IMG/VR virus record: IMGVR_UViG_3300037461_001096
Span: 75,068 to 139,067 of that record
From: a virus
DNA length: 64,000 nt
Strand: one strand, 5' to 3'
The notes below the pieces were generated by a model. That model was given only the letters and a program-made list of their open reading frames with translations. It had not been told where the DNA came from and did not search any database. A program made the position numbers and the translations under genes. The stretch's first letter is position 1; every line of letters begins with the position of its first letter. Of the stretch, positions 393-52,039 are shown piece by piece.

Positions 393-419
393 GTTGTCTC
401 CGTATTTCTAACGATTATG

Positions 420-437
420 GTCACACTCCAGTGTAAC
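420..437. promoter_or_regulatory. Imperfect palindrome, operator-like
   Basis: GTCACACT-CC-AGTGTAAC, 8-bp arms with one mismatch; on the minus strand it lies just upstream of a CATAAT (-10-like) and the 392 start. Confidence 0.35.
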
Positions 438-475
438 TAAGCAATAACACAAGTCTACATTCCGTTTTTACAGCA

Positions 476-799: not shown

Positions 800-840
800 G
801 CCTCTGTCTACTTGTGATAGGCTAAAATTTACGGCTAAAT

Positions 841-851
841 CACGAGATCTC
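841..851 (+). repeat. Direct repeat copy 1 (CACGAGATCTC), putative target-site duplication
   Basis: Identical 11-mer at 2619..2629; lies 6 nt beyond the stop codon of the nuclease-Mom gene. Confidence 0.75.
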
Positions 852-857
852 AAATTG

Positions 858-2621
858 TCATTTGTTCAGCAGATCACACCATCTCCATCTGGTTTTTCCA
901 TAATCCCAGATTTTTGTATATCCCTGGTTTCTTCTAAAACTGTTTTCAGTTTCATAACATCCTTCCGGCTTTCTAAGTGATGACTTGTGGTGTCTAACTC
1001 TATTTTTCACCCAATAGTAATCAGGACGTATTTGACCATCGTTACGAAATCCCATTAGCTCATAAACACGACCCGTAAACAGCCTGTTATCCGAAAATGT
1101 TATTATCGACTGTACGCCATTTGATTTCGTAAACAATTGCAAAATTTTAGACCAAATACCATGTACATGATATTTGGGGTTCATAGCCATTCTTGAGATT
1201 TCATATTCGCCAAAGCATTTCTGGCGCACAGGCTTACGGAATGAAATACACCCTATCAACTCTTCGGCGTGAAAAACTCCGTAGTGAATCGAAGATGGTG
1301 CACCGCCAATATAATGGAATTGTTCATAAAACTCGAAGGCATACTTGGCAGAAAGTACTTTAATAACACAATTGTTTGGACGAATTTTCTTAGGTTTATT
1401 GCAGCCAAGTCTATTGGCTATGATTGACTTCATTATATCGCATTTCTTTTCCCATTCATCTTCAAACAAAACGATTATGTTATATCCGTTTTCTTTCGCC
1501 AATGCGAATTTTCTGGCATCCCTTTGACGGGATAAGACCCCGGAGTGCCATCTCAAACCATTGAGTTCTATAAGCAATTTTTTGTCTGGAATGGCTATAT
1601 CGTACGGGACACCATTCACCAAAAATTCACATATAACATTTTCCCCGATAGATTTTATGAACTCTGCCAACTGTCGATTCCACCTGGGAATCGTGTCATT
1701 CGTACACCCACATGTGAGTGAAATACCACGTTTTATGGAGTGAAGGTACGGACGATATGTGTTTGAACAAGCTGGACAGATTGCCTTAAATGAGTCCGTT
1801 GTGTTGAAAACCACTTCTAATGGAACAACACCTCCAGGAGGAAAATCAGCTTTTGAAGCCGGGCATTTTATACCACGGATCTTCTCTTTGTTTTCTTCAT
1901 ACCATAAATCAACCAGAGTATGACACAGCCCACACTTTGTGGTAACGCGTCTAGTTATACTACCTATTTGAATGTTCTTAACGACGCCACAACGACACTT
2001 AAAAGGAAGTTTTTTCTTGCTTCCTGGTGACACAGTCGCTGATTCGCCATAATAAGTGAAATCAAAATACTCTTGACCGTGTTCGAGAAAGATTTCGTTG
2101 CATCTCCCACAAGTTTTGGCTAGTCCAGTAGTAACTGTTCTTATCGATCTCTCACTAGACTTACCGCATTTACACTGAAACAATAGTTTATTCGGAGAAT
2201 TTGCAAACACTTCAACAGTTTGACCTAGATACTTAAATCCAAAATATTCGTCGCCGTGTTTCAACGAGATTTTTGAACATTTACCACAGCTTCTGATTTT
2301 ACCATTGAAAACGAGTTTTGCCTGGACTGTCTTATCATTTCCACACGAACATCTGAACTGAATTAATTTATTACTACCAGCACTTATCTTGATATCCTGT
2401 CCGAGGTATGCCAGACTTCCGTACGTGTCTTTGTGTTTTAAAGTCACGTCATTGCAATGACCACATGTTTTCTGGCCATTTGATATATTGGCCACTTTTG
2501 CGGTAAACACGTGACCACACATACACTTAAATAACAGTTTTTTAGAACTCTTCGGATTTATTTCTATCGGATCTCCAACATAGGAGAAGTTTCCATACGT
2601 TATACTATGAGTCAAACGCAC
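858..2621 (-). CDS. Zinc-ribbon-repeat + PD-(D/E)xK (Vsr/DUF559-like) endonuclease + Mom-like GNAT domain (Hef-like homing endonuclease)
   Basis: Five CxC/CxxC...CGxC units; nuclease motif YDIAIPDKKLLIELNGLRWHS; C-terminal FHYIG..EISRM..TFSDNRLFTGRVYELMGF..PDYYW..IWDYGK. Likely GTG start at 2621 (track start 2696 overlaps the helicase). Confidence 0.8.
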   Translation of the reverse strand: MRLTHSITYGNFSYVGDPIEINPKSSKKLLFKCMCGHVFTAKVANISNGQKTCGHCNDVTLKHKDTYGSLAYLGQDIKISAGSNKLIQFRCSCGNDKTVQAKLVFNGKIRSCGKCSKISLKHGDEYFGFKYLGQTVEVFANSPNKLLFQCKCGKSSERSIRTVTTGLAKTCGRCNEIFLEHGQEYFDFTYYGESATVSPGSKKKLPFKCRCGVVKNIQIGSITRRVTTKCGLCHTLVDLWYEENKEKIRGIKCPASKADFPPGGVVPLEVVFNTTDSFKAICPACSNTYRPYLHSIKRGISLTCGCTNDTIPRWNRQLAEFIKSIGENVICEFLVNGVPYDIAIPDKKLLIELNGLRWHSGVLSRQRDARKFALAKENGYNIIVLFEDEWEKKCDIMKSIIANRLGCNKPKKIRPNNCVIKVLSAKYAFEFYEQFHYIGGAPSSIHYGVFHAEELIGCISFRKPVRQKCFGEYEISRMAMNPKYHVHGIWSKILQLFTKSNGVQSIITFSDNRLFTGRVYELMGFRNDGQIRPDYYWVKNRVRHHKSSLRKPEGCYETENSFRRNQGYTKIWDYGKTRWRWCDLLNK

Positions 2622-2629
2622 GAGATCTC
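2619..2629 (+). repeat. Direct repeat copy 2 (CACGAGATCTC); contains the probable GTG start
   Basis: Identical to 841..851; 2 nt after the helicase TAG on the minus strand. Confidence 0.75.
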
Positions 2630-2631
2630 TT

Positions 2632-5600
2632 CTAGATAAATAGGTCTTGTGTTTGAAGAGTGGAAATGAAATTTGACGCTGACACAATGCTATCATTGTT
2701 TATATCGATGAGCATGGATTCAATAGCTCTCATGCGTTTTGACATCCAAAAAATCTTGCCGATCATACGCTCGAATATGGGATTGTCTCTGTTTTTCAGA
2801 TTACCCATGTAAAATTTCCCCTCCTTGCGGAGTTGATCATTTAGATAAGTCCAAGTAATGACATCAGCGCTTTTCTCACAGTTGTGGGAAAAGAAACCAC
2901 CAGTCGAGTACTCATGATCGCCGGTCACTTCCAGGTCGAAAACTCGTCCGCTCCCAAATTTTTCAATGGAAGCAATTCGATGCGGTCTCATTTTGGTGGC
3001 CAGTGTCCGCAATTCTGAAACATCATTTCCGCCGACGTCATTTATGGTATTTAGTGTTTCCATGAAGGCATTGTGTGGAACATGATCATTGTCACTGTTC
3101 AAAACACGGTTGGTTTTCCTCGTGAACTGTCCTTGGTGCTTCGCACACACAGCACGTAGCGTTGATCCAACAGGCCATGATGTCGTGTTTTCAGCCTTGG
3201 TCAATGCTGAAAACTTATATACAAACTCCATCAGTTTTTCTTGTTTGCTTGGCTCAGTAAATCCAACTAACCTAGCAAACAACTCTCTCGAGTTGTGCGA
3301 TCTGATTCTGAGACATGCTTCATCGGATTTTTTACTATTTAAGGAGGCTCGTTTGTCATAAACGGTGGTTTCAATTCCAAGCTTGGCGAACAACAATTGC
3401 AGTTGCAACAGGGTGGGTTTCATTTCGTTTCTTAAACCAATATTCACAATTCCTTGTGAACTCACACACCCATAAGTATCCATGATGCCTTGAATGAAAG
3501 TAATTACCATCGACCTTGGCGCTTGCAGAATGACCAAGGGAATGCCTGGTCGGCGGTTCACACTGCGCACAAACACCCCATCGCCTGCATGCGCACCCAT
3601 CAGGTATGCAAGCTGTTCTGTAAGCTTGGACTGTGTAGAGAAAGAATGCTCGCCATGCTGGACTTCCAATGGCGGAAGGTCTGGTGATTCAATTGGGAAT
3701 TGGTTGTTATCGAAATCTGTCAGAATCATGTCTCCCAGTTGCATATCACTTACCTGTGCCCAAACAATTTTGCCATTCACCAGAGACCTGAATCTGTGCG
3801 ATCCTGTAACAACCGCTTCTTGACCTCTATTTGTTTTGAGTTTGAAAACTTCCCTAACTCCATTGTCGAAGCAATTCAAGACCTCTTTCCACCCTGTGGA
3901 ACTCCACACTCGGTGGACCCCTGGCTTTATCCGCTCTATCGGCACAAGGCCAAGCTGCGTTTGCACAAGCGTTCCTTCAATGTTACATTCATTGGCGTAG
4001 CTTATGGCGGCCATATCATAACGACCGTCATTTTTGTCGGCCCTAAGTTTACCCTGCCGGTTCATTTGAAATAGAGCAAGGACTGGCACACCTCGACCTC
4101 TGGCAAAATTTAGAGCCATCAGACGTCCATCACGCACAACAGCATTCTGGGTTGTCACAAAGTCTGATGTGCGATGGCGAGGTTTCACTAGCCCCAAGTG
4201 GTCAATAACCACTCCGTCGCAGCCCCATTTATTATGAAACATTTCAGCTTTGCGTCGGATCTCTAATATTCCGGCTTCATCTGGAGGACGCCATACGAAA
4301 AGCTTTCCCTTGGACGTTGCTTTAAAATCTTGTGCTACCTTCTTTAAACGTTCTTTATCCCTTGGGGAGAGCTCACCATCCCGCACTCTCCTATAATCAA
4401 GGCCAGTATATCTACGTTCTGGAGGAATTCCAATTCGTTCATCCTCCTTCCACCATTCTGTCACAAATTTTCCATGTGATGAATGGATAACATATAGCTG
4501 ACGTCGAAGTTGCTTGTATGGCATTTCAAGAATGGCATAAAAAATGTTTTTTCCATACACATATGCGTTATTATATGCATAGTTCAAAGCCAGGCTAGTG
4601 TTGTGAGTGATAATGTCGTCAACCACGAAAGAATGATGTTCTGGCACAGACATATCATATGTCATTTGTCTGCCCTTAGAAGCTATCGTACGGATTCTTT
4701 CCCAGCAGATGTCATTGTCAGCAGCGTTGCATGACTGCTGAGACACTGCAGGATGCATACCGGGCAAGGACGAGTGTGGGTTGTCATCCACAGAGTGTAG
4801 GCTGTTTGCTATTGAATCTGACTCATTTTGCTCGATTATATACGGTGTTAAAGTCAAAAACCTTCTTTTAGACTGTGTCTCAACTATTTTGACAATCCAA
4901 ACTGGACAAGATTTCCCGTTATACTTAATCTTATGACTTGTGATTGTCGATTTGATGCCTAAACGTAAAAGCAATGACTGTATGTCCACACATAGACCAT
5001 GCGATGCAGAATAATATTTTAAACCATTACGTTTATTCAAACTGACACGAGACCATAGAGCTCTGAGTAACAATATCACCTGATGTTCTGGTAATCCAAA
5101 GAATTCATCTGGTACACGCCTAAGACATCCTCCAGTTATCTCCACTTCCATATCCGTAAATTGCTCATTTGGATCCGGGACTAACATACTGCATGGTACG
5201 GCCACCAAATCACCCGGAGACAATTTGCCCAGGTATTTCCACCCATCAGGCGTCCAGAAACCATGGTTATTTGTGACTGTTGTAGCACGCCCCGATTCCA
5301 GTTTCACTTCATACACGTGTCTCACGCCATTTTGTAATACATGAGACACACGCGCCTGAACAAGTTTTGGTTCAGCACCTTCCTTATATAATGCTGTAAC
5401 GACAGGCATATCACCGGATTCAAACACCTCATCCATACGTCTACGCCGTTTAGCAGCATGATCGTAAATAATGGAAGATCCCGCTACGCATTTGAGCTCG
5501 CCTGCGAAAGCTGTGTGAATCCAGTATTCACCCTGACGGTGCCCCCGGCAAACCGCATCAACAGGTTCAAGACCGAATAGATTCCGACCCGCGTATTTGT

Positions 5601-6147
5601 CCGTCTTTTCTACAGTGTCGTATTCTTGAAGAATTTCTTCGGCATCGTCTGTCACTACACCTTCAAGTTTTTCACCCCCTTCAACTCTGGTGAAATCATG
5701 AAGTTTATCATAGACAAACCCAACAGCGTCTGTTATACCTTTTAAGACCTTCTTTCCATTCACAGGTTTATCAAGATTTCGTCCATGTTCAGCAACAACC
5801 GAGGCGTCGCGCATGAGAAGCATGAAATTTTTTACTTGTTGTTTATCCTCCTCGGCTCTGACAATGGCAAGATAATTTGTCCCAATAAATGGCTGGGCAT
5901 TCTTAATCTCGTCAAGCCGTGTCACGGCTTCTATGTTATCTTCTTTTTCGAAGAATTCACGGACGATCCCGAAATCTGGCGGGGCCGCCATTTGCCCATA
6001 AAATTTTCGAATATACTCCCAAATCGCTTTATCCTCAACAGAGGAAAAATCAATAACATGTTCTTGAAGTTTGTTCCAATTCTTCAAACAGTCTTCAGCA
6101 TCTGGAACAGTTCCGACTTGCATTAAGCTTCTCAGTATTCGATCCAA
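2632..6147 (-). CDS. dnaB: Replicative DnaB-like helicase with two inteins (about 505 aa after splicing)
   Basis: Walker A AGELK|T, ILEM, VVIDHLGLV, LFQMNR, YANE|CEKSAD, LKNRD motifs of SF4 helicases. Confidence 0.9.
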   Translation of the reverse strand: MDRILRSLMQVGTVPDAEDCLKNWNKLQEHVIDFSSVEDKAIWEYIRKFYGQMAAPPDFGIVREFFEKEDNIEAVTRLDEIKNAQPFIGTNYLAIVRAEEDKQQVKNFMLLMRDASVVAEHGRNLDKPVNGKKVLKGITDAVGFVYDKLHDFTRVEGGEKLEGVVTDDAEEILQEYDTVEKTDKYAGRNLFGLEPVDAVCRGHRQGEYWIHTAFAGELKCVAGSSIIYDHAAKRRRRMDEVFESGDMPVVTALYKEGAEPKLVQARVSHVLQNGVRHVYEVKLESGRATTVTNNHGFWTPDGWKYLGKLSPGDLVAVPCSMLVPDPNEQFTDMEVEITGGCLRRVPDEFFGLPEHQVILLLRALWSRVSLNKRNGLKYYSASHGLCVDIQSLLLRLGIKSTITSHKIKYNGKSCPVWIVKIVETQSKRRFLTLTPYIIEQNESDSIANSLHSVDDNPHSSLPGMHPAVSQQSCNAADNDICWERIRTIASKGRQMTYDMSVPEHHSFVVDDIITHNTSLALNYAYNNAYVYGKNIFYAILEMPYKQLRRQLYVIHSSHGKFVTEWWKEDERIGIPPERRYTGLDYRRVRDGELSPRDKERLKKVAQDFKATSKGKLFVWRPPDEAGILEIRRKAEMFHNKWGCDGVVIDHLGLVKPRHRTSDFVTTQNAVVRDGRLMALNFARGRGVPVLALFQMNRQGKLRADKNDGRYDMAAISYANECNIEGTLVQTQLGLVPIERIKPGVHRVWSSTGWKEVLNCFDNGVREVFKLKTNRGQEAVVTGSHRFRSLVNGKIVWAQVSDMQLGDMILTDFDNNQFPIESPDLPPLEVQHGEHSFSTQSKLTEQLAYLMGAHAGDGVFVRSVNRRPGIPLVILQAPRSMVITFIQGIMDTYGCVSSQGIVNIGLRNEMKPTLLQLQLLFAKLGIETTVYDKRASLNSKKSDEACLRIRSHNSRELFARLVGFTEPSKQEKLMEFVYKFSALTKAENTTSWPVGSTLRAVCAKHQGQFTRKTNRVLNSDNDHVPHNAFMETLNTINDVGGNDVSELRTLATKMRPHRIASIEKFGSGRVFDLEVTGDHEYSTGGFFSHNCEKSADVITWTYLNDQLRKEGKFYMGNLKNRDNPIFERMIGKIFWMSKRMRAIESMLIDINNDSIVSASNFISTLQTQDLFI
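2881..3987 (-). mobile_element. Intein 2 in DnaB (369 aa), degenerate LAGLIDADG endonuclease
   Basis: Starts CNIEGTLV, block B VTGSHRF, LAYLMGAHAGDG and FIQGIMDTYG motifs, ends VFDLEV...FSHN followed by Cys. Confidence 0.9.
4600..5490 (-). mobile_element. Intein 1 in DnaB Walker A (297 aa), partial LAGLIDADG remnant
   Basis: Starts CVAGSSII, block B VTNNHGF, ends TYDMSVPEHHSFVVDDIITHN followed by Thr of the P-loop. Confidence 0.92.
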
Positions 6148-6155
6148 ATTATCCC

Positions 6156-6947
6156 CTATTCTCTACCGAAATTTTTCTTTTTATTTATGCCTGACCCGTA
6201 TATTGATAAGTTGAAATTATCGTCATTATCAACGGTAGGTAGATCTTTTGGTTTAGGTTTTATCCGCTTTTTTGTGGAATCAGGTGTGGTAATAGGGCTT
6301 TCCGGTTCTGACTGACTAGACCCAACGGGGGCGAGGTCAAATAAACCAGTTGTTTGACCTCGTGGTAAAATTGGGGATATCCGAATTTTTGGGAAAATTT
6401 CGATTAGGTCCCACAGGGATTCTGAATAAGCTGGACTGTTAGATATGAAAGGTCTGTCCATATCAGACACAAGCCAAGTCGGTTTGTCCTGATCTGAACG
6501 AATAACCAGTGCTTCTTCAAGTGCGCCAGCGGCTGCCTTATTTGGCCTAGTTATAGCATTTAGACGAATTACAGCCAACCCGGGGGGCCCTATGAAGTCC
6601 CCAACATTCTCAAAAGAGACTTCGTTTTCACTCCTACTCTTTTTGGACATATTCCCAACATAAGCATGCAGAATTTCATTATCAGAAGTCACACGCACAA
6701 ACAGATTCACATGACGAAGCATAACGGCCTTCACAATTGCCTTCATATCCGCCCACATGGCCAGTATAAACAAAGACTTGCAAGTCTGGTCATGAAGCTT
6801 CGGTGTCAAATGCTCAGGACGAAGCTCGGCAATTCTTATATAGGGAGGCATAGATGCAGCCCGACGCCGCAAAAGAGCACAAATACATTCATATAGCTTG
6901 CCGTCTTTTTCCAGAATCCCAGATCCATTGCATTTGCACCCTTCCAT
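6156..6947 (-). CDS. DnaC/IstB-like helicase loader homolog, degenerate ATPase motifs
   Basis: N-terminal CKCNGSG...ECIC zinc motif, LEEALVIRSDQDKPTWLVSD resembling DnaC R...PTIITSN; adjacent to dnaB; ATG at 6947. Confidence 0.55.
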   Translation of the reverse strand: MEGCKCNGSGILEKDGKLYECICALLRRRAASMPPYIRIAELRPEHLTPKLHDQTCKSLFILAMWADMKAIVKAVMLRHVNLFVRVTSDNEILHAYVGNMSKKSRSENEVSFENVGDFIGPPGLAVIRLNAITRPNKAAAGALEEALVIRSDQDKPTWLVSDMDRPFISNSPAYSESLWDLIEIFPKIRISPILPRGQTTGLFDLAPVGSSQSEPESPITTPDSTKKRIKPKPKDLPTVDNDDNFNLSIYGSGINKKKNFGRE

Positions 6948-6948
6948 A

Positions 6949-9054: not shown

Positions 9055-9152
9055 ATTAGTCTTTGGTTGTATTTTATGAACGCAAAACCAAACATAAGGT
9101 CAAGCATCAAATGATAATTAAACATGAGGCATAGACAGCCCCTGGGGAACAT

Positions 9153-9374
9153 TCACATCATACGCTGTTCATTTATCAATTCATTACACAAAAGACATAG
9201 GTCACAATCAATATCACACCACGCTGTGGCCCCACATTTCGGGCAGGTTATTATATATCTGGCCACAAACGCTGCAATCTCATGTGCCGTTATGTCTGCG
9301 ATGAGCTGCGCATCTGGTGCATTGGATAAAGCGTGTTTCAATATTTTTATTGCAGTTTTCTCTGGGTCATTCAT
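9153..9374 (-). CDS. Small Cys-rich (zinc-finger-like) protein
   Basis: 73 aa with CPKC, CxxxC, CLLC; AAGGG upstream. Confidence 0.6.
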   Translation of the reverse strand: MNDPEKTAIKILKHALSNAPDAQLIADITAHEIAAFVARYIITCPKCGATAWCDIDCDLCLLCNELINEQRMM

Positions 9375-9474
9375 GGATCTATCCCTTGTTACACTAGGCT
9401 TTGCTTATTCCCGTGCAGTATCGTAACAGACCTGACCGTTTTATGCCAGGATCCCGTGTTGAACGTATTAATGC

Positions 9475-10580: not shown

Positions 10581-10590
10581 CTTAACAACC

Positions 10591-15144: not shown

Positions 15145-15275
15145 TCGAAATCTCCAGCAGAAGATTGAACAAAAAGATTATCTGTCTCTTAGGTAACAAT
15201 CTCTGCAAACTGGCATACGTTGTAACAATTCAAGTATGTCAACACACTTTACGGAAAAACCTGACATAATTAGTC

Positions 15276-18200: not shown

Positions 18201-20012
18201 GTCAGTAATATTTAATAACATCCCACCGTTTGGATCTGTTGTCATTCCTTCAAAGCGGAGTAAAACAGCATCCGGGTCTTCGCTTGGCAAAACAAACCTG
18301 ACTTGGTCTGCATCTGTTAATGGAAGGCCGGCCTGAAAGTCGGATAGTTTGATAGTAATTTCATCTCCGTTCCACCACCAGTCAACTCCGCCTTGCTGCC
18401 TATTACCTCCACCAGGTGTTTTGGTAGCTGCTGTCCAGCTGACAGTTGTGTTATACGGAGTAACGCCAATGGATAGGAGGTCACCGACGGTGCCAGCGTC
18501 CGATGGGATTCTCGCAACCGCTGAATAACGTTCTGTTACGACCGCGTCAGAAAAAGCTCTTCGGTTCCCGTTTGGTGCATCAAGGCGAGACAGTCCACCA
18601 ACGAAAGTGGTTGAATCAGTAATTCTGTCTCCATACAAAACAATCGATCCAGAAGAATTTGTTGACCCATAACGCTTCCAAGTAGTACGCAGGTTTCCTT
18701 TCAAAAGCTCAACCAAATTGGTCTTAAGCAATGTCCCATAGTCATAACTATCCAAGACAACATGTCGCATGTCGAGGATGTCAGTTAACGCGACCTGATC
18801 AGCAAATAAGCCGTCCGGCCTTGTTGTAACAAGAGTCAATGAGGCCCCCATTTTGTGATCTCGAATCACAGTTTGAAGGGCTCCGCGACTAATGTTTACA
18901 ACATATGCAGTCGGACTTGTCTGAACAATGCTGTCAACCTTAATGACCTCATCATCGATCTTAAAATACGCCTCACCAAAGTTTGTCATAGTGGTGAGAA
19001 CTGTCCCAACAATGCTTGTCAGAGTGAACGAAAAATCGGTGGCGAGCAGATCTGATGGTAGAGATACGCCTGTTGTATAAATAGTCACCCCGTTTCTATC
19101 AGAAGCTTGGCTATTTCTATTGAAGGCTCCAGAAAGATTCCCAATGTCAGAAAACCCAGCGGAGTTTCGCCGGAATACCGTGCAAAGTGGAATTGCGTAC
19201 ACATATCCGTCTACAGTTCCAAATGTAGACGGATCCCCCGTCCCAGCCCTCCACAACCCTGGGTCTCCAAGAGTTTGGCGCATGTTCTGAAATGCTGTAG
19301 AACTTGGAGACGATAGCATGCCTTGGGCAAAAACAAGGGTTGGGTCAAATCCCTCCGGATTCTGCGCCATGTTAACATCTGCAACGACTCGAATCCTATA
19401 TTGGATTTGAACACGTCCAGTTGTCTCATAATTAAGATCTGGATCAACAATGCCGTCCGGCAAAAATGAGAAACCACCCTCAACGTTCCCAAAGCGCCAC
19501 ACATATCCGCGCTGGGGTTTGCCTGGAGCGACAGCCGAAGTAGGGTCTGAATCAATTCTAGCAAGCCATACCTCAAGAAACACAAATTCAGCGCGGTTAC
19601 CACCTGTAGATGTGTTCGGAGGATTAAGAGCAATTTTATTCCATGTATCAACATCATTTGGGACAAGGGGAGGGCTTCCAGTGCGTGTTCCAGCCACCGG
19701 GACCATCCACCCGTTTACGACTGCCCAAGCAAGATTTCTAATCTCAGTTGATGAATTTCGTCCGAAATAAAACTGATTTGAATATGAAGCATCAGTTTTG
19801 AAATCCCCATATGGATTTGATAAATCCGCTAACCAACCAGACGGATACCTCGACCTCATGGTTTCGGCCCGAGCCTCGAGGTCCATAAGAGAGATTAAAT
19901 TTAATTCAGCATCACAAGGTGGCTTTGTCTTTCGAAAGACAACGGTCGCAAACTGGCGATCCCTATCGTCAATATATCGTGAAACGCCTGGTCCAAGAGG
20001 ATTCGTCGGCAT
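15276..20012 (-). CDS. Large virion structural (fibre/baseplate-associated) protein, 1578 aa
   Basis: N-terminal region paralogous to 20762..23326; C-terminal WLNG..QYGVDYTV small beta domain; structural cluster context. Confidence 0.7.
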   Translation of the reverse strand: MPTNPLGPGVSRYIDDRDRQFATVVFRKTKPPCDAELNLISLMDLEARAETMRSRYPSGWLADLSNPYGDFKTDASYSNQFYFGRNSSTEIRNLAWAVVNGWMVPVAGTRTGSPPLVPNDVDTWNKIALNPPNTSTGGNRAEFVFLEVWLARIDSDPTSAVAPGKPQRGYVWRFGNVEGGFSFLPDGIVDPDLNYETTGRVQIQYRIRVVADVNMAQNPEGFDPTLVFAQGMLSSPSSTAFQNMRQTLGDPGLWRAGTGDPSTFGTVDGYVYAIPLCTVFRRNSAGFSDIGNLSGAFNRNSQASDRNGVTIYTTGVSLPSDLLATDFSFTLTSIVGTVLTTMTNFGEAYFKIDDEVIKVDSIVQTSPTAYVVNISRGALQTVIRDHKMGASLTLVTTRPDGLFADQVALTDILDMRHVVLDSYDYGTLLKTNLVELLKGNLRTTWKRYGSTNSSGSIVLYGDRITDSTTFVGGLSRLDAPNGNRRAFSDAVVTERYSAVARIPSDAGTVGDLLSIGVTPYNTTVSWTAATKTPGGGNRQQGGVDWWWNGDEITIKLSDFQAGLPLTDADQVRFVLPSEDPDAVLLRFEGMTTDPNGGMLLNITDPGPPPVQGPDIINPDTAPTVSYPTMLNGLVEYDLIGNHIMKHGQGIDVSINSSGDLVIKFNSGTDSTKLTEFDDAMYGFTSPSTDLAIATVLHIQFAVVYGAGRGLSHKPKHIHAVNWLGSPSNSSKVMTRPGLPTMNRMIPTYLGDSPLVQTGRNRTLAITSEVMIDPGSKTVYVAPYRNMLTPKLLVRSGYRLNWYGTQLSPSFQGPMPKLSQDGLTTVYSVTDPLSLFYSQRASGTANYADTRYVELPMEWMPRPGLHHIPIIPVTNGIFPSGLNFLLMSKEGPFAATNTSDWNRNLVCYPSGAPGFYIVTPVPSETYGQASGSMSIFGQKYINSTVSSASGGSFKGIQFPPFLAPARITGVYLRDPITDPVVPSPASPFDNNRIYVGGVGTSINLLRDDCDAATVLLSVDANGDLTFVLSADALDFSKAPAGTTFDNSNFLVECTLFAFDRGFLQTNARLLICKMISGGSISVDVNNFTTSSDNTVGVIVPAPMSLNYVNNEVTVYYSRMPYQGDVFGTQGSHSDDLQRIGPLSVGEAQAIFNHPLGPPNTLTLKNKAGFEILTSLPFVTSLGTGRLSGSTPIPMLSTVSNPNGVPDYAGTLVDLDRRFSLNRVGYEDWATPKFPVTAASVASRPAVKRGAMSEAYDRDLHPEFAGCVSNLPLGIYFRDKDFIGKTLYQTRSASNAALIPLGTLSFQPFQSAQDPSVAGIPRWEGTEFVCGNASNITGNGGEALIRVDGTGSTTDVYNFKTTRGGAAYSVTSPWAGSGIVAKLTKAKPNFEVGAVMSGVAYLVRSQPEVVNSSEVHPGHELQMFIVTHASPSYFRGTEVSHSASGVNEGYTAADRFRIWGRPLEKRRSGVDMDIVPTAKPMFVNDVWDDPIFFGSSDPNLGSFRQETITISSDGQTLFPDALSGSPLDPATVQAWLNGSKLQYGVDYTVGGPPLNRDITYLTSFPSLITSDVLEVFYALK

Positions 20013-20111
20013 TCGTACAGCTCCGTATTAGTCAAACGCAATAACCACCAAAAGGTCGCATAAGTGGCCTAGTTGAACCATACCCGAAAATTTAACAGCC
20101 AGACAGAAGGG

Positions 20112-20765
20112 TTATTCTCCCGTCTTAAACATCATCATCCAATCTGACAAGTAGACTGTGTATGAAGAACCGTTATAAAATCCAACAACGAAATCATCCG
20201 GTAACGCCAGTGTTCTAAGTTCATCCGGAACAACATCTTCGATGAGCACAAGAGCGTCGGTATACAAACTAACTTGAACATTTAACAGAGAAGGATCGAT
20301 AAAATTTTGTCCTCCTTCATCGAAATTATAAAATCTACAACTGTAATCAATGTTATTGTAGCTTGTTTCCTTAGAGCCATAAATAAACGTATTGAAGTGA
20401 AAAACGTATTTGGAAACATTAGAGACTGAATGAACTTGTGTGTATAATTCCCCTCCAGGACGGATTGATGTGGTCTTTGCAACCCCTCCACATGTGATCA
20501 AAGTCGAGTTAACAGTATCACAGTCACTTCCATCAATAAATTCTTCAGCAACCGGGGAGGTATCTATATATGGTTGATATAATAACTTGAGCGCTTCGAA
20601 TTTAGCGTTAATGAATTGATTAATGGTAGACCCATTCGGAAGAATAGATTCCGGAATGTCGATTGGACAGTCACATACAATAATGTCTGAAGGTATCGGA
20701 AAGACAAGCTTGGAATTTGCGACACGCCCGATGATTGTTCCATCTGATTTGGCCAGAAACTTCAT
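20112..20765 (-). CDS. Hypothetical virion protein
   Basis: 217-aa ORF coupled by ATGA overlap to the upstream structural gene. Confidence 0.7.
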   Translation of the reverse strand: MKFLAKSDGTIIGRVANSKLVFPIPSDIIVCDCPIDIPESILPNGSTINQFINAKFEALKLLYQPYIDTSPVAEEFIDGSDCDTVNSTLITCGGVAKTTSIRPGGELYTQVHSVSNVSKYVFHFNTFIYGSKETSYNNIDYSCRFYNFDEGGQNFIDPSLLNVQVSLYTDALVLIEDVVPDELRTLALPDDFVVGFYNGSSYTVYLSDWMMMFKTGE

Positions 20766-23326
20766 TGAGTGAGTCTCCTGGAATTTATAAGATTTCCACG
20801 TGTCCTATAAATTGACACACATCCTGAACTTGATGTTGGTAAAACCGAAATTGACGACAACGAATCCGTCCCATAGGTTGTAAACAATGCAAGGACCAAA
20901 GTTCCTGGTCGGATTTGATTTGTATCCGTTGACACAACTTCCATAAGTGCTGGGTAAACAGCACGATGAGGAAAATCTGAACCCATGTCTTCAATACCTC
21001 TAAACTCCACCACGTCGTTTACACCAATCCGGGGCCAGAAGTACCTTCCATCACTGTCAACAACTGTGTCCCCAACATTCCGAAGTAAAACTTCACTATT
21101 TTTCAGATAGGTAAATTTTGAGGGAACATAAGCAAAACCGCTGTTAACCGGTGCAGAGTCTGGCATGATTACACCAACAGGACTGCTTCCAACACTCCCC
21201 TCTCCATCACCATTAGCCATTGGAATTTGACTAATTCCGTTTAAATCCCAGTCAGGAGTGTCAGGACTTGCCGACGATCCTGTCACCATTAGCATATGCG
21301 GAGATATGGCTCTAAGTCGAAGTTTCATTTGGTAAGTTCCGCTGGGAACTTCCACTGACTGATTGGCTCTAGCAGTATAAAAGACGTCATACCAAGTTCC
21401 GGGTCCAGCTGGTAGGGGAGGGGACGGAATAAGCTGAGTGTATGTAACATTTACGACTGTGTTTGCCGGAACTGTATGAGACAGTTGAATTTTTGTATAT
21501 GTAGTATTGATAGTGTAGTTTGTTGTTCCATATGATGGATTAATTCCATCATCTATTGTAACTGAACCGGACAGTCGATTAGGCAACATGACATAGTCAC
21601 CAGTCGATGAGGCAAACACGTTGTCTGACTCCGATTCACAAAGAAGAGATAGAGACAACTCCCTATGGAACCACTGTATCGACCATAGAGAACTATCCAA
21701 AAGAAGTCGTGATAAATCTGGGAGAGCCTCAACATAAGCCGGATCAATCCATGCATCCAACGATTCAGGCATCCATACCTGTCCGTCTTCCACGGGTGTT
21801 CTCTCGAGCCCACAGTCCCCTGGGTACCCGATCGCTAATTCAACATAGGCATACACATCTCCGGACGCGGATATGTCTGTGAAATTTATTGTGACTTCAT
21901 CAGAACTCAAGTCGATAACATCTGCATAAATTACTCCATTCGTTGGGTCAAGCCCATCCACTTCTTGGGTTGAATTTACCGTCAGTCTAAGTTTTCTGAC
22001 TTCTAGAAATTTAGTCCCTGAAGGAACTAATGATGATAAATCGACTGAGGATCCATACCAAACAATAGGCATGTCATCCATGCCTATAACTACTGTTGAA
22101 TAAGGGGACATGACCTGCTTTTTGCAAACAATTGTCTCGGTCACAGCGCGATCAGAAAACAAACGCCTGACGCCGTCTGGTGTTTGACGTCCTGACGGAG
22201 CTAGCGTATTGTGAACAAATACTGAGGTTCCGCCGCAATTGCTTGGCGAAAGAATTTCTGATTGAGTCGCTAGCTGGTTTTGAATCAGATAATTGAAATT
22301 TCGAGTAAGAGCTTCTTGAAAATTACTGGTCGCGGCTTTACGTAAATCTTTCACATCTTTATCAACGATTTGGTCAGCAAATAGCCCATCAGGCCTGTCA
22401 GATGTTCCGACTGCTATTAAGACTCCACCGTTTAAATTTATGCTTCTATCAAATCCATCACTGTTTCGTCTATATACCGCGCACAATGGGATAGCATACA
22501 CATAACCGTCAACTGTTCCAAGGTCAGAGGCCGACGTAGAATCACCGTCTCCAGCTCTCCATAAACCCGGATCCCCAGTGACTCTCTCGTATGGGTATGA
22601 CGTAGAATCACCGTCAACATCGCTACTATTCAAGTATGGAACTGTGTTGGCCATAACGCCATCTGGCGCTTCTGGATAAGTTCCTTCTATACTTCCCCAT
22701 GAAATTACCCTGTACCTATATTGGATCTGAACTCGAGCTTGAGTTTCATCAAGATACGTCGGATCGATTAAGTCGTCAACAAGATTCCTGTTTCCAACGG
22801 AGTCTGGGGCTTTTGCGTTACCATGCCGTAGAATTTGTCCGGATACGCTTTTGTTATCCCCAGACCCAGCTGTAACCAAAGCCCTCCAAACTTCGAGTAT
22901 CACAAGTTCTGAATCTCTACCGGTTGAAGGAGGCCCAGATAGCTGGATTTTATTCCAACCATTAGTTTCAGTGTCAGAATATTCAAATCTGACACTCCAT
23001 CCATTTACAACCAAATCGGATGCGGCCATCATGAACGCATTTTCATATCCAGGACTTATGGAGAACATGAAGTCTGGGCCGACAGCCGAATACTCGTAAA
23101 AATCCCCACTTAAAAAACCAGACGGGACTGTTTGACGCACATGCTGGCCGAGGCCATAAGCTGAAGTAATCTCATTCTGAAGATTTAACTCCCAGTCATT
23201 AACTGGTTTATTGAACTGGAATACGACTCCTTCCCAAGAATGATCTTCAGCCGTGTAAGCACCGGCTCCGGCAACAATGGTCTGTGGGTTTTGGCTTACA
23301 CCTGGGCCAAGCTGTTTATATGCCAT
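20762..23326 (-). CDS. Virion structural protein, paralog of the 1578-aa protein
   Basis: Shared LGPGVS, LEVW, RVQIQYR, GDPGLWRAG, GTVDGYVYAIPLC, RPDGLFADQ blocks. Confidence 0.75.
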   Translation of the reverse strand: MAYKQLGPGVSQNPQTIVAGAGAYTAEDHSWEGVVFQFNKPVNDWELNLQNEITSAYGLGQHVRQTVPSGFLSGDFYEYSAVGPDFMFSISPGYENAFMMAASDLVVNGWSVRFEYSDTETNGWNKIQLSGPPSTGRDSELVILEVWRALVTAGSGDNKSVSGQILRHGNAKAPDSVGNRNLVDDLIDPTYLDETQARVQIQYRYRVISWGSIEGTYPEAPDGVMANTVPYLNSSDVDGDSTSYPYERVTGDPGLWRAGDGDSTSASDLGTVDGYVYAIPLCAVYRRNSDGFDRSINLNGGVLIAVGTSDRPDGLFADQIVDKDVKDLRKAATSNFQEALTRNFNYLIQNQLATQSEILSPSNCGGTSVFVHNTLAPSGRQTPDGVRRLFSDRAVTETIVCKKQVMSPYSTVVIGMDDMPIVWYGSSVDLSSLVPSGTKFLEVRKLRLTVNSTQEVDGLDPTNGVIYADVIDLSSDEVTINFTDISASGDVYAYVELAIGYPGDCGLERTPVEDGQVWMPESLDAWIDPAYVEALPDLSRLLLDSSLWSIQWFHRELSLSLLCESESDNVFASSTGDYVMLPNRLSGSVTIDDGINPSYGTTNYTINTTYTKIQLSHTVPANTVVNVTYTQLIPSPPLPAGPGTWYDVFYTARANQSVEVPSGTYQMKLRLRAISPHMLMVTGSSASPDTPDWDLNGISQIPMANGDGEGSVGSSPVGVIMPDSAPVNSGFAYVPSKFTYLKNSEVLLRNVGDTVVDSDGRYFWPRIGVNDVVEFRGIEDMGSDFPHRAVYPALMEVVSTDTNQIRPGTLVLALFTTYGTDSLSSISVLPTSSSGCVSIYRTRGNLINSRRLTQ

Positions 23327-23329
23327 TTC

Positions 23330-25400
23330 TCAGATCGATCCAATAAGAGGGTTGTGGATTGTTTCAACAATACCGGTGTAAATTAACATATGCAACAAAT
23401 AAATTTGGAGATAATAAGATGGACCTGACCTGTGCTGCTAACATTGATGAATGCCTAATAAGATTTCATATTTTCCAAACGTCTACGCCTGAGTTATTTG
23501 GTTATATTTACGTTTAGATGGACTTGCAAATAAAACAAATTTCTTTTTTTCTTTACCCCAAACTTTAGTATAATTATTTTCCTCTGCGTATTGACGTTCA
23601 GTTCTTCCCATTTTTACAGCGTGATTATATAAAGTTTTCTTGTGTAAAACAAACCCTTGATCGTTGACATAGCAATAATCAGGTTGCACAGTTCCGATAC
23701 ATAGCCAATTTGAGACTGAGTATATAGTTCCGATATGACCATATGTCATATCGGCAAATGATACAAAAGCTTTTATGTTAGTAAAGCTAGATGATGCCAG
23801 CTTCACCGCTCTACAAATAAACCACGAAGCAAGATTCTTTTTATGGAAATTTGGATGAATACAAAATCTGTCTAGCTCAAGCAATGAGTTTGGTTCCATT
23901 TCCATAGAAGTAGCCACTTCTTTACGTATAATTGGAGTAAACTTACATACAGCAATGAGTTCATTGTCCAAAAACGCGCCATATGAAATTTTATTGTGTC
24001 TACCAAACCCAGCATAATGGTAAGCATTTAGAAAATTTGCAGCCTCTTTTGATTCCAATGATCGAATGCTGAGTTGAGAAAAAGAAAATGAAACTGGTTC
24101 AATAACTGGTATATCACCAGTTATAAAATTTTTTATCTTATCTGCTACACATTCCGGATTTATGAAATCACGTTCAAGTAAGTATAACAACCTTGCCTGT
24201 GGTTTAGACCTTTCTAGATAGGCAAGTTTAGCCGAATCACGAGATTGTCTACCCGGTAAAGAGTGCCAGTACTCACCTTGACATTCTATGAATATATCTA
24301 AATCTGGTAAAACAAAATCAAATATCCATGGACCAGTTGGAACTTGACTTTGATAATTCAATTGCATGGCACTCAATATTGTAGCGGTGATTTTCTCTAA
24401 AGATGATAAACGACGAATTTGCATAGAACGGTGTATGCCCATTTTATGCTGATATTTAGGGTCAAGCCACATTTCTTTGCTTTGACATGAACGTGTGTGC
24501 CTATATGCTGGATCATGCCACAATTTACAAATTGATTCAATCATACGGCGTTTGTACTCTGCATCTTGCCATCTTGCTTTAGCTGCAGCAGATGCTTTCG
24601 CCCTGTACTCAGGTTGCTTCCACTTTTCAGTAATTATGGCCGCCAGTTGTTGGCGATATTCAGGGCTTGCCCACATCTTTTCATATTTGGCTCTAAAATC
24701 TGGGTTCAGCCACAGTTTACTTTGTGCTAACTTGCTCGCTTGTCGACGTTCTGGTGTCCAGGTTTCACGTTGTTTAATTGACTGGTTTAACCTGTAAGCC
24801 GGGTCTAGCCATTTGGCTGTCATTGCAGCAGAAATTGCGGACCGGCGTGCTGGGTCAGCCATAACAGTAGTTTGAATAGCTGCTGCTTTGAGTCGAAATT
24901 CTGGTGTTTTGAAATCTGCTTGAGCTTGTCTAAACTCAGGCTTACGCCAAAGTTCAAGTTTGGCTTCTCTTTGTTTCTCTGCGTATTGAGGATCTTCCCA
25001 TAGTTGTTTACTAGTTTTAGACAGCTGCTCCCGCCTGGCGGGAGTTTGTGCTCGCAAACATCTCTCAATATGTTTGCGAGCAAATTCTGTATCCTTCCAT
25101 AAATTCTTGCGAATGGTAATCTGCTGTTCACGAAATTGTTCATTTTGCCACATGGACTTATAAAATGAACGTTTTTCTTCAGTCCACGACCGTTTAACAA
25201 CGCATGAATTACATATAACAACACCTTGCTTTCGTAAGCGTGCCTTCAGGTTGATTATTTTTATATGTAATTCACAGCCACAGTCTACACATGTAGACAC
25301 CACCATTGACGCATTGTTTATTGGCTGTCCGTATCTATTAGTAGTTTTAGTTAAGTCCAATGAAGGTAGTAATATACTAATATCAGATCGCATCCCAATA
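23330..25400 (-). mobile_element. Putative inserted nuclease/Mom-like cassette B flanked by imperfect 16/18-bp direct repeats
   Basis: TCAGATCGATCCAATA (23330..23345) vs TCAGATCGCATCCCAATA (25383..25400); non-structural gene inside the tail gene cluster. Confidence 0.45.
23483..25393 (-). CDS. Trp-helical-repeat + PD-(D/E)xK endonuclease + Mom-like GNAT domain protein
   Basis: N-terminal CVDC/CNSC, about 14 W-x-[DN]-P-x-[YF]-R repeats, FDFVLPDLDIFIECQGEYWHS, then YHYAG..ELDRFC..NLASWFI..VSFADMTYGHIGTIYSVSNW. Confidence 0.85.
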   Translation of the reverse strand: MRSDISILLPSLDLTKTTNRYGQPINNASMVVSTCVDCGCELHIKIINLKARLRKQGVVICNSCVVKRSWTEEKRSFYKSMWQNEQFREQQITIRKNLWKDTEFARKHIERCLRAQTPARREQLSKTSKQLWEDPQYAEKQREAKLELWRKPEFRQAQADFKTPEFRLKAAAIQTTVMADPARRSAISAAMTAKWLDPAYRLNQSIKQRETWTPERRQASKLAQSKLWLNPDFRAKYEKMWASPEYRQQLAAIITEKWKQPEYRAKASAAAKARWQDAEYKRRMIESICKLWHDPAYRHTRSCQSKEMWLDPKYQHKMGIHRSMQIRRLSSLEKITATILSAMQLNYQSQVPTGPWIFDFVLPDLDIFIECQGEYWHSLPGRQSRDSAKLAYLERSKPQARLLYLLERDFINPECVADKIKNFITGDIPVIEPVSFSFSQLSIRSLESKEAANFLNAYHYAGFGRHNKISYGAFLDNELIAVCKFTPIIRKEVATSMEMEPNSLLELDRFCIHPNFHKKNLASWFICRAVKLASSSFTNIKAFVSFADMTYGHIGTIYSVSNWLCIGTVQPDYCYVNDQGFVLHKKTLYNHAVKMGRTERQYAEENNYTKVWGKEKKKFVLFASPSKRKYNQITQA

Positions 25401-25407
25401 CATTACA

Positions 25408-26070: not shown

Positions 26071-26079
26071 CTTGAGCTC

Positions 26080-35214: not shown

Positions 35215-35243
35215 TGCTTGCCTTTCCGACTACAATTTTAGCA

Positions 35244-36047: not shown

Positions 36048-36055
36048 GAAGCCTC

Positions 36056-49163: not shown

Positions 49164-49186
49164 GTTGGACGATACTCACAAGGGAG

Positions 49187-52005: not shown

Positions 52006-52039
52006 GCGTCACTCTAACCTTACTATTGTAATATCAATC

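What the first reader, a model, noticed from the sequence alone, without database searches (positions are those of the whole stretch)
841..25400. Two nuclease + Mom-like modifier cassettes, each bracketed by direct repeats on a GATC-containing palindrome: candidate new selfish element
Seen: genes 858..2621 and 23483..25393 share the order repeat array -> PD-(D/E)xK nuclease -> Mom-like GNAT. Each is flanked by a direct repeat that overlaps its own start codon, and both repeats carry an 8-bp palindrome containing GATC (GAGATCTC; GATCGATC). Deleting one repeat plus the gene leaves a short, normal-looking intergenic spacer in both cases. Established: Mu Mom is a GNAT-fold adenine-hypermodifying enzyme, and free-standing homing endonucleases spread by gene conversion, which does not normally create target-site duplications. 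Inference: a single-polypeptide cut-and-protect (restriction-modification-like) element that inserts via a staggered cut and uses the duplicated target as its start site.
Basis: partly seen in the sequence, partly recalled or inferred. Interest (0 to 1): 0.85.

Follow-up and report, generated by a model that had tools for sequence, protein, structure and literature searches.

The report
Hef-type homing endonucleases carrying Mom domain
The two genes are members of an already described family of selfish phage nucleases (Hef-like homing endonucleases) fused to a Mom-like DNA-modifying domain, and the short repeats beside them are real but do not look like the family's way of inserting.

Summary
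The window is part of a 139-kb fragment of a jumbo phage. The nuclease profile matches I-Bth0305I, the prototype of the EDxHD homing endonucleases, at E 1.8e-9. A confident model of the C-terminal half of gene 858..2621 (pLDDT 94.5) has Mu Mom (8bv8) as its best structural match. Six Mom active-site residues are kept in 14 of 14 family members aligned.

This family is already known. Gene 858..2621 aligns over 89-95% of its length with the 'Hef' homing endonucleases of Campylobacter phages. Iyer et al. 2021 already described jumbo-phage nuclease-Mom fusions as predicted restriction-plus-protection units. The fragment holds 8 paralogs and a complete 362-kb relative holds at least 13, mostly at different sites.

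The flanking repeats exist and are mildly unlikely by chance (7 of 2000 and 5 of 2000 shuffles). They are absent from the other 6 paralogs here and from 7 of 8 checked in the relative. A clean filled-versus-empty pair in Acinetobacter phages also lacks them. No empty allele of either locus could be found. Other first-stage notes of this scan, on the same genome, list the upstream paralogs.

The parts
858..2621 (-). Gene A (M4): Hef-type homing-endonuclease gene, 587 aa from the GTG at 2621. An alternative ATG at 2696 would overlap the helicase gene by 65 nt.
   Evidence: ORF, translation. PHROG 559 matches the full length at E 7e-72. It is 26% identical over 89-95% of its length to Campylobacter phage Hef proteins.
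1731..2621 (-). Gene A N-terminal array of treble-clef Zn-ribbon repeats (CxCG...CGxC units), the presumed DNA-recognition module.
   Evidence: Pfam DUF4379 at E 2.4e-10. The repeats are visible in the translation. This is the least conserved part between paralogs, 37% against L015.
1416..1730 (-). Gene A Vsr-like (EDxHD) nuclease domain.
   Evidence: The family profile A2 hits I-Bth0305I (3r3p) at E 1.8e-9. The single sequence aligns its WHS histidine and FEDEW aspartate to the catalytic H213 and D222 positions.
861..1415 (-). Gene A Mom-like GNAT domain.
   Evidence: Pfam Mom at 31.2 bits against a cut-off of 27.1. The AlphaFold2 model has pLDDT 94.5. Foldseek's top hit is Mu Mom 8bv8 at E 9.2e-8. 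H58, Y59, R111, S124, D149, R151 and Y159 are kept.
2619..2629 (-). Upstream copy of the 11-mer GAGATCTCGTG, 2 nt after the helicase stop. Its GTG is the likely start of gene A.
841..851 (-). Downstream copy of the 11-mer GAGATCTCGTG, 6 nt after the stop of gene A and 41 nt before the ATG (799) of the next ORF.
23483..25393 (-). Gene B (M5): 636 aa, with an N-terminal Zn ribbon plus a helical W-x-[DN]-P-x-[YF]-R repeat array, then a Vsr-like nuclease, then a Mom domain.
   Evidence: Homologues 44-48% identical cover 93-98% of the long form, which supports the ATG at 25393.
24041..24355 (-). Gene B Vsr-like nuclease domain.
   Evidence: It aligns with the gene A nuclease. Pfam hits to MTES_1575 and DUF559 are weak. 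One source names homologues 'very-short-patch-repair endonuclease'.
23486..24040 (-). Gene B Mom domain.
   Evidence: Pfam Mom at 81.1 bits. It matches the Mu Mom chain 8bv8_A at E 9.5e-7. H58, Y59, R111, S124, D149 and Y159 are kept; position 151 is T instead of R.
25383..25400 (-). Upstream copy of the imperfect repeat (TATTGGGATGCGATCTGA), which holds the ATG of gene B. It has no 8-bp palindrome.
23330..23345 (-). Downstream copy of the imperfect repeat (TATTGGATCGATCTGA, holding GATCGATC). It ends 3 nt before the ATG (23326) of the 854-aa gene and lies 137 nt after the stop of gene B.
2632..6147 (-). Context: a DnaB-like helicase gene directly upstream of gene A. It carries intein and LAGLIDADG insertions, so it is a classic target of mobile elements.
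   Evidence: PHROG 19. Pfam Intein_splicing, LAGLIDADG_3 and DnaB_C. It has two segments that are absent from relatives L021 and L022.

Best explanation
Both genes are free-standing homing-endonuclease genes of the Hef type. Each protein has three parts: a variable DNA-recognition array, a Vsr-like EDxHD nuclease, and a C-terminal Mom-like GNAT domain that is very probably still catalytic.

**Shown here**
- The domain identities and folds.
- Conservation of the nuclease and Mom active-site residues.
- Membership of a multi-copy family whose positions differ between related jumbo phages.
- Intergenic placement next to conserved genes.

**Inferred**
- The nuclease cuts a specific, probably pseudo-palindromic, site in phage genomes that lack the gene.
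- The gene then spreads by recombinational repair (homing), which leaves no target-site duplication.
- The Mom-like domain modifies adenines in DNA. This would either shield the carrier genome from its own nuclease or from host restriction.

The 11-bp and roughly 17-bp flanking repeats are best seen as local accidents or as scars of the two particular insertion events, for example illegitimate recombination at microhomology. They are not the family's insertion mechanism.
For: **Domains**
- The profile of 68 family members hits I-Bth0305I (3r3p) at E 1.8e-9, and the catalytic H and D align.
- The model of gene A residues 323-612 has pLDDT 94.5 and pTM 0.90. Its best structural match is Mu Mom 8bv8, followed by GNAT acetyltransferases.
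- H58, Y59, R111, S124, D149 and Y159 of Mom are kept in 14 of 14 jumbo-phage members aligned. R111 and S124 are shown essential in PMC13219725 (passages read).
- The Mom-like part is the best conserved segment in 5 of 6 paralog or ortholog pairs.

**Family**
- Gene A aligns over 89-95% of its length with annotated Hef proteins.
- The 290-aa nuclease-plus-Mom module is found in 403 phage records, and 366 of them cover at least 80% of it. Annotations include 'Hef-like homing endonuclease' and 'nuclease/acetyltransferase'.
- Hef of phage U5 is cited as an active homing endonuclease (PMC2988022 and PMC3322345, passages read).
- Hef-type enzymes are placed in the EDxHD family by PMC3239194 (passages read).

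**Mobility**
- There are 8 copies in this 139-kb record, at least 13 in a 362-kb relative, and 0 in a 240-kb relative.
- Only the M2/L009 pair was clearly syntenic, among the 8 G001 copies whose surroundings were compared.
- The interval downstream of the helicase differs in each of the relatives found.
- In Acinetobacter phages the gp24/gp23 spacer is found empty, filled with a Hef-like gene, or filled with a different endonuclease gene.
Against: - No cleavage, homing or DNA modification has been shown for these proteins.
- I could not read the U5 Hef paper. I did not verify that U5 Hef itself has the Mom-like domain; I only saw GenBank notes that Campylobacter Hefs resemble it, in one case at the C-terminus.
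- Pfam's Mom model does not score the Campylobacter Hefs at E up to 0.1. It misses 3 of the 8 paralogs here (searches compared).
- R151, reported as essential in Mu Mom, is replaced in gene B and in 6 other members among the 14 aligned.
- One pair, M2/L009, is syntenic at about 60% identity. That fits a stably kept, useful gene as well as it fits a parasite.
- Genes A and B rank 5th and 4th of 123 ORFs for start/stop-flank similarity. Pure chance does not explain that comfortably.
Confidence: 0.72

Rival explanations
1. Domesticated restriction-plus-protection weapon, as predicted by Iyer et al. 2021. The Mom domain marks the phage's own DNA, and the fused nuclease destroys unmarked host DNA or DNA of co-infecting phages. 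The genes are kept for the phage's benefit and are not themselves mobile. The many paralogs, with different recognition arrays, would widen the range of targets.
For: - The published prediction for jumbo phages (PMC7824862, passages read).
- Mom active-site residues are kept in 14 of 14 members.
- The Mom part is the most conserved segment in 5 of 6 pairs, and the arrays are the most divergent.
- M2 and L009 are syntenic orthologs flanked by conserved genes.
- Two nuclease types, HNH and Vsr-like, are joined to the same Mom domain.
Against: - Positions differ between related genomes for the other copies compared, and copy number ranges from 0 to at least 13.
- The same intergenic sites are found empty or holding unrelated endonuclease genes.
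- Relatives of gene A are annotated after an experimentally active homing endonuclease.
- This reading and the homing reading do not exclude each other, since homing endonucleases also serve in competition between phages.
Confidence: 0.2
2. This is a new kind of element that inserts at a staggered cut made by its own nuclease. The insertion duplicates 11-18 bp of a GATC-containing palindromic target, and the upstream copy then supplies the start codon.
For: - Both genes have a direct repeat that spans the start codon and recurs after the stop. They rank 4th and 5th of 123 ORFs, with 7 of 2000 and 5 of 2000 shuffles reaching their scores.
- The only two GAGATCTC sites in 139 kb flank gene A.
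- Removing one copy plus the gene leaves plausible spacers of 54 and 26 nt.
- EDxHD enzymes are dimers that recognise pseudo-palindromes.
Against: - There are no such repeats at the other 6 paralogs in this record, and 7 of 8 tested in the relative have none.
- A Hef-like filled/empty pair shows no duplication.
- Campylobacter Hef copy-number variants arise by recombination between the ends of paralogs.
- I-Bth0305I leaves 2-nt overhangs.
- No transposase and no terminal inverted repeats are present.
- The gene B repeat needs two gaps and has its palindrome in one copy only.
- Relatives carry no GAGATCTC at the helicase site.
Confidence: 0.08

Closest known systems
Hef ('homing endonuclease-like function') of T4-related phage U5, and the Hef-like free-standing endonucleases annotated in Campylobacter (NCTC12673 Hef53/58/59/60), Dickeya LIMEstone, Acinetobacter and PA5oct phages
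   Same: - Same three-part architecture: Zn-ribbon array, Vsr-like nuclease, C-terminal roughly 185-aa domain.
- Gene A aligns with these proteins over 89-95% of its length.
- They are free-standing and intergenic, lie beside conserved genes, and occur in many copies per genome (8-11 places in Campylobacter phages; 5 in PA5oct).
   Different: - Only about 26-36% identical to gene A.
- Gene B replaces the Zn-ribbon array with a helical repeat array.
- Two paralogs outside the window use tandem HNH domains instead of the Vsr-like nuclease.
- The Campylobacter proteins have drifted further from Mom: no Pfam Mom hit, and Y59 and R151 are replaced.
I-Bth0305I, prototype of the EDxHD (Vsr-like) homing endonucleases (PDB 3r3p)
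   Same: Homologous nuclease domain (E 1.8e-9 with the family profile). The catalytic H and D align.
   Different: I-Bth0305I is intron-encoded, uses NUMOD/HTH DNA-binding motifs, and has no GNAT domain (PMC3239194, passages read).
Mom of phage Mu (PDB 8bv8), the Gly-tRNA-dependent adenine N6 modifying enzyme
   Same: - Closest solved structure to the gene A C-terminal domain.
- Direct sequence match for gene B (E 9.5e-7).
- The active-site residues are kept.
   Different: - Mu Mom is a stand-alone 241-aa protein under Com and Dam control.
- Here the domain is the tail of a nuclease.
- The dimer residue W48 and also W181 are not kept, and R151 is kept in only half of the members.
Jumbo-phage REase-Mom fusions described by Iyer, Anantharaman, Krishnan, Burroughs and Aravind 2021 (Viruses 13:63)
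   Same: The same observation and the same functional prediction: Mom protects and the fused nuclease restricts. The paper also notes several copies per genome.
   Different: In the passages I read, that paper does not link the fusions to the Hef homing endonucleases or discuss their mobility. Its supplements could not be opened.
Single-chain restriction-modification enzymes (Type IIG/IIC)
   Same: One polypeptide that would both cut DNA and modify DNA.
   Different: The modification domain is a GNAT acyl or aminoacyl transferase, not a methyltransferase. Nothing here shows that the nuclease is blocked by the modification.

Membership tests
Hef-type / EDxHD (Vsr-like) homing endonucleases | Vsr-like nuclease domain with the conserved catalytic acidic and histidine residues | tested here: met
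   The family profile hits 3r3p at E 1.8e-9. The H of WHS and the D of FEDEW align to H213 and D222. The D, E, H and D columns are invariant or nearly so in 68 sequences. Gene B aligns to gene A across this domain.
Hef-type / EDxHD (Vsr-like) homing endonucleases | Full-length similarity to proteins named Hef | tested here: met
   Gene A is 26% identical over 89-95% of its length to Campylobacter phage Hef proteins, and PHROG 559 matches it full-length at E 7e-72. Gene B matches only over nuclease plus Mom, 40-46% of its length.
Hef-type / EDxHD (Vsr-like) homing endonucleases | Free-standing gene whose presence varies between related genomes | tested here: met
   Copy numbers are 8, at least 13 and 0 in three related records. 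The positions of the other copies compared are not shared. The relatives found lack gene A at the helicase site. The relatives are only 47-89% identical in protein, so no allele-level comparison was possible.
Hef-type / EDxHD (Vsr-like) homing endonucleases | Site-specific cleavage near its own locus, and homing in mixed infection | not testable with these tools
   This needs biochemistry and phage crosses.
Mom family (Pfam PF25680) | Score above the curated Pfam cut-off | tested here: met
   Gene B scores 81.1 bits and gene A 31.2 bits, against a cut-off of 27.1.
Mom family (Pfam PF25680) | GNAT fold closest to Mu Mom | tested here: met
   Model of the gene A C-terminal half: top hits are 8bv8_A and 8bv8_B at E 9.2e-8 and 2.9e-7, followed by GNATs. 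Gene B was not modelled.
Mom family (Pfam PF25680) | Residues needed for Mom activity (H58, Y59, R111, S124, D149, R151, Y159) | tested here: met
   Gene A keeps all seven. Gene B keeps six and has T at position 151. The residue list comes from PMC13219725.
Mom family (Pfam PF25680) | HTH-like insertion (Mom residues about 175-209) needed for activity | tested here: inconclusive
   The sequence alignment runs through this region at similar length. I did not check the insertion in the model.
Mom family (Pfam PF25680) | Adenine N6 modification of DNA | not testable with these tools
   This needs LC-MS or single-molecule sequencing kinetics.
Transposable element that makes target-site duplications | Transposase or integrase, and terminal inverted repeats | tested here: not met
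   Only the nuclease, Zn-ribbon and GNAT domains were found. No inverted repeat lies at the cassette ends.
Transposable element that makes target-site duplications | Flanking duplications at most copies, with a single copy in empty sites | tested here: not met
   2 of 8 copies here have repeats. In the relative, 7 of 8 tested have none and 1 is borderline. The Acinetobacter filled/empty pair shows none. Empty alleles of these two loci were not found.

The most novel reading that the evidence does not exclude
The fusion would be a self-immunising homing endonuclease.
- The dimeric Vsr-like nuclease recognises a short GATC-centred palindrome such as GAGATCTC.
- The Mom-like domain of the same protein aminoacylates an adenine in that palindrome on the carrier genome, so the element can keep intact target copies on both of its flanks.
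- Those two flanking copies are the regenerated sites of a cut-and-rejoin insertion of the cassette, much like cloning a fragment into a restriction site.

This would be a way for a nuclease gene to move that is neither classical homing nor transposition.
Probability: 0.06. Interest if true: 0.75.

Novelty: new member of a known kind. Interest (0 to 1): 0.3.

Why it matters
Hef-like genes are common in large phages. The nuclease-plus-Mom module is in 403 of 50,697 phage records, and here the family fills about a tenth of a 139-kb fragment.

If the conserved Mom-like domain really modifies DNA, a widespread class of homing endonucleases carries its own protection or anti-restriction activity. 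That would bear on how such genes avoid killing their carrier and on how phages compete. The idea is already in print as a prediction, and Mom's chemistry has recently been solved, so these proteins are ready-made test cases.

The specific claim that made this finding look new, insertion with target-site duplication, is not supported.

Tried and rejected
**1. Close relatives in the phage collection by DNA**
- There was no megablast match for window 1-9000 or for 20000-29000.

**2. Empty alleles**
- The helicase protein found 2 IMG/VR loci and 4 metagenome loci. The 854-aa neighbour of gene B found 1 locus.
- All are too diverged for an allele comparison: 47-89% protein identity, and 66-78% DNA identity in the three metagenome loci compared by blastn.
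- Each carries different content at the site.
- Searching with gene A itself gave only 28-49% identical relatives.

**3. Sequencing runs**
- Two runs hold the stretch. One is probably the source. The other holds a few short identical contigs, one of them inside gene A.
- There were no joints that skip the gene. These are contigs, so rare variants would not show.

**4. Promoter and terminator scans**
- Around both genes, promoter-like sites were at chance level. Terminator-like sites were somewhat above the shuffles (5 found against means of 2.0 and 1.3), and none marks the end of a cassette.

**5. Motif avoidance**
- GAGATCTC occurs 2 times and GATCGATC 3 times, against 1.97 expected. GATC occurs 570 times against 524 expected. 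There is no sign of selection on these motifs.

**6. The repeat finder**
- It did not list the exact 11-mer pair although searches show it. I rely on the direct reads.

**7. Campylobacter Hef58/59/60 as a model for insertion junctions**
- The variants differ by recombination between homologous ends of tandem paralogs, so they say nothing about first insertion.

**8. Literature**
- I searched for a paper linking Hef to Mom. None of the listed titles, abstracts or passages I read makes that link. That covers only the held library.
- The supplements of PMC7824862 and PMC13219725 could not be seen and may list such fusions.

**9. Rejected: the Mom-like domain as a dead structural remnant**
- Its catalytic residues and its above-average conservation argue against this.

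Full report
**Setting.** The window is bases 75068-139067 of a 139,067-bp virus record that CheckV rates 33% complete. It is therefore a fragment of a jumbo phage. Almost all long ORFs in the window lie on the minus strand. Most find no PHROG family; the exceptions include two helicases.

**The two genes.**
- Gene A (858..2621, or 2696 if the upstream ATG is used) and gene B (23483..25393) translate without stops.
- In gene A, Pfam finds treble-clef Zn-ribbon repeats, a sub-threshold Vsr/MTES_1575-type nuclease and the Mom family at 31.2 bits (cut-off 27.1).
- In gene B it finds weak nuclease hits and Mom at 81.1 bits.
- PHROG 559 ('HNH endonuclease') covers gene A end to end at E 7e-72. PHROG 3339 ('homing endonuclease') and PHROG 1384 ('Mom-like DNA modification protein') also hit both genes.
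- The two proteins align over nuclease plus Mom at 25% identity, E 5e-18.
- The N-terminal arrays differ. Gene A has CxCG...CGxC units. Gene B has one Zn ribbon followed by about ten short helical W-x-[DN]-P-x-[YF]-R units (read).

**Fold and active sites.**
- A profile of 68 family members hits the catalytic domain of I-Bth0305I (3r3p) at E 1.8e-9. I-Bth0305I is the prototype of the Vsr-like 'EDxHD' homing endonucleases.
- Gene A alone aligns its WHS histidine and FEDEW aspartate with the H213 and D222 positions of that enzyme.
- AlphaFold2 on gene A residues 323-612 with that alignment gave pLDDT 94.5 and pTM 0.90.
- Foldseek against the PDB ranks the Mu Mom crystal structure 8bv8 first (E 9.2e-8), followed by GNAT acetyltransferases. 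Gene B matches the Mom chain directly by sequence (E 9.5e-7).
- The 2026 Mom paper (PMC13219725; abstract and passages read) names H58, Y59, R111, S124, D149, R151 and Y159 as active-site residues. It reports R111 and S124 as essential and the R151A variant as inactive.
- I aligned Mu Mom with 14 jumbo-phage family members and two Campylobacter Hefs. H58, Y59, R111, S124, D149 and Y159 are kept in 14 of 14 jumbo-phage members. R151 is kept in 7 of 14, including gene A but not gene B. W48 and W181 are kept in none.
- In six paralog or ortholog pairs the Mom-like segment is the most conserved part in five (for example 73% against 52-55% for M2/L009, and 51% against 25-36% for gene B/L011). The arrays are the least conserved part.
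- The domain therefore looks functional, not vestigial.

**The family is known.**
- tblastn of gene A against 50,697 phage records finds 401 records. In 38 of them one place covers at least 80% of the protein. The best are Campylobacter phage proteins annotated 'Hef' or 'Hef-like homing endonuclease', with 8-11 places per genome.
- The 290-aa nuclease-plus-Mom module alone is in 403 records, 366 of them at 80% coverage or more. Annotations include 'homing endonuclease', 'Hef-like homing endonuclease' (PA5oct, 5 places) and 'putative nuclease/acetyltransferase protein'.
- GenBank notes on NCTC12673 Hef53, Hef59 and Hef60 say they resemble Hef of phage U5, for Hef60 at the C-terminus.
- Hef of U5 is cited as an active endonuclease that cleaves near its own locus and replaces mobE between nrdA and nrdB (PMC3322345 and PMC2988022, passages read).
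- The original paper, Sandegren et al. 2005, is not held. Anything beyond those passages would be recall.
- Taylor et al. 2011 place 'bacteriophage Hef type homing endonucleases' in the Vsr-like family (PMC3239194).
- Iyer et al. [quoted passage not shown]
- The cut-and-protect idea is thus in print. Six literature searches found no paper that explicitly equates Hef's C-terminal domain with Mom. The Campylobacter Hefs themselves score no Pfam Mom hit at E up to 0.1.
- Metagenomic relatives are many. For gene A there are 16,766 cluster representatives at E up to 0.001 and 489 at E up to 1e-30. For gene B, 65 of the 76 hits carry PF25680, many of them on contigs of 170-430 kb.

**Copy number and mobility.**
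- The Pfam Mom model finds 5 genes in the record. A profile of the Hef-like C-terminal domain (A1) finds 8.
- Besides A and B, the members lie at record positions 27372-29057, 34398-36320, 48207-49835, 51039-52742, 55485-57260 and 59860-61656.
- Two of these, 48207 and 51039, have tandem HNH domains instead of the Vsr-like nuclease.
- A complete 362.5-kb relative (G001, 47-66% protein identity in flanking genes) has at least 13, counting the union. A 240-kb relative (G002) has none.
- I compared flanking genes for 8 copies in G001. Only M2/L009 are clearly syntenic, with neighbours 65-80% identical. The G001 copy closest to gene A (39.5% identical) lies where this record has a sigma-factor-like gene. 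The copies closest to gene B lie in regions with no other shared genes.
- The interval downstream of the helicase is different in each relative found:
  - 4 nt in L022;
  - a 67-aa ORF in G001 and L020;
  - other genes in L021;
  - gene A plus two more ORFs here.
- This is the pattern expected of free-standing homing endonuclease genes. The helicase beside gene A itself carries intein and LAGLIDADG insertions.

**The repeats.**
- The 11-mer beside gene A is exact and occurs only at those two places in 139 kb.
- The gene B repeat has 16 matches with two 1-nt gaps, and its palindrome is in one copy only.
- A local-alignment test compared 50 nt around the start with 200 nt after the stop for 123 ORFs. 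Genes B and A rank 4th and 5th. The first three places belong to a repeated intergenic element at the left end of the record. Shuffles reach the observed scores 5 of 2000 and 7 of 2000 times.
- By my own arithmetic (not a call), two of five named family members falling in the top five of 123 has a hypergeometric probability of about 0.012.
- Against this:
  - M1, M2 and M3 rank 102nd, 101st and 120th, and the three other paralogs are not in the top 20.
  - In G001, 7 of 8 genes tested show nothing (190-998 of 1000 shuffles reach them) and one is borderline (20 of 1000).
  - Wide windows give exact words of 11 nt or more for 7 of 99 ORFs.
  - Gene A's start codon was picked with the repeat in view.

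**An allele-level test in a related system.**
- In Acinetobacter T4-like phages a Hef-like gene ('putative nuclease/acetyltransferase', about 30% identical to the gene A module) sits between gp24 and gp23.
- Among 95 records that match this locus, some lack the gene and some hold a different endonuclease gene.
- The filled allele (Berthold) and the empty allele (AB-Navy71) are collinear up to the gp24 start codon and again from the shared terminator. Between these points a 38-nt spacer is replaced by the gene and its leader.
- No direct repeat brackets the insert: 932 of 1000 and 805 of 1000 shuffles reach the best local match.
- In Campylobacter phages the Hef58/59/60 array varies by recombination between homologous paralog ends.
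- I-Bth0305I is a dimer that cuts a 14-bp pseudo-palindrome with 2-nt 5' overhangs. This fits a palindromic target but not an 11-18-bp duplication.
- No transposase domain and no terminal inverted repeats were found.

**What could not be done.**
- No close relative (above about 90% DNA identity) of either locus exists in the collections I could reach.
- The two sequencing runs holding the stretch gave only contigs, with no joint across the gene.
- Whether an empty site keeps one repeat copy therefore remains untested for these two loci.

**Verdict.**
It is wrong in calling them a new kind of element, and probably wrong about the insertion mechanism.
- Most likely mechanism: site-specific cleavage by the array-guided Vsr-like nuclease, spread by recombinational repair, and adenine modification by the Mom-like domain. 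The last two steps are inferred, not shown.
- The flanking repeats remain a small unexplained residue. My estimate is about even odds between chance and scars of the individual insertion events.

Noticed in passing
window 2632-6147 (-): The DnaB-like helicase is 1171 aa, against 871 aa in relative G001 and about 500 aa in L021 and L022. The two extra segments carry Pfam Intein_splicing (2 stretches) and LAGLIDADG_3. It therefore probably holds two inteins, directly next to the Hef-like gene.
   Followed up: partly
G000:C1 about 1-9200 (outside the window): A repeated GC-rich intergenic element with a CGATCG core brackets several short genes. It gave the top scores in my repeat controls, with shared words of 15-24 nt.
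   Followed up: no
G000:C1:19542-20876 (-), outside the window: A 444-aa ORF that reads like a sigma-70-type factor (judged by eye from the sequence, not tested). It lies exactly where relative G001 carries a Hef-like gene, between two conserved neighbours.
   Followed up: no
window 23483-25393 (-): The public gene call for gene B is 556 aa, starting 80 codons downstream. Homologues that cover 93-98% of the 636-aa form, and a conserved N-terminal Zn ribbon, support the longer form.
   Followed up: partly
L034:4360-4440 (Acinetobacter phage Berthold): The Hef-like ORF ends inside the loop of the hairpin terminator that it shares with the converging gp23 gene. The empty allele has the same hairpin with a shorter loop.
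   Followed up: no
window 10591-20012, 26478-32810, 43839-49163 and 52411-56643 (-): Five ORFs of 1410-2110 aa. For the two that were scanned (10591-15144 and 15276-20012), the only PHROG hit is a weak 'tail protein' match for one. The others were not scanned.
   Followed up: no
G000:C1:61776-62612 (-), outside the window: A 278-aa ORF with motifs that I recall from orotidine-5'-phosphate decarboxylase (sequence). It was not tested with any profile.
   Followed up: no
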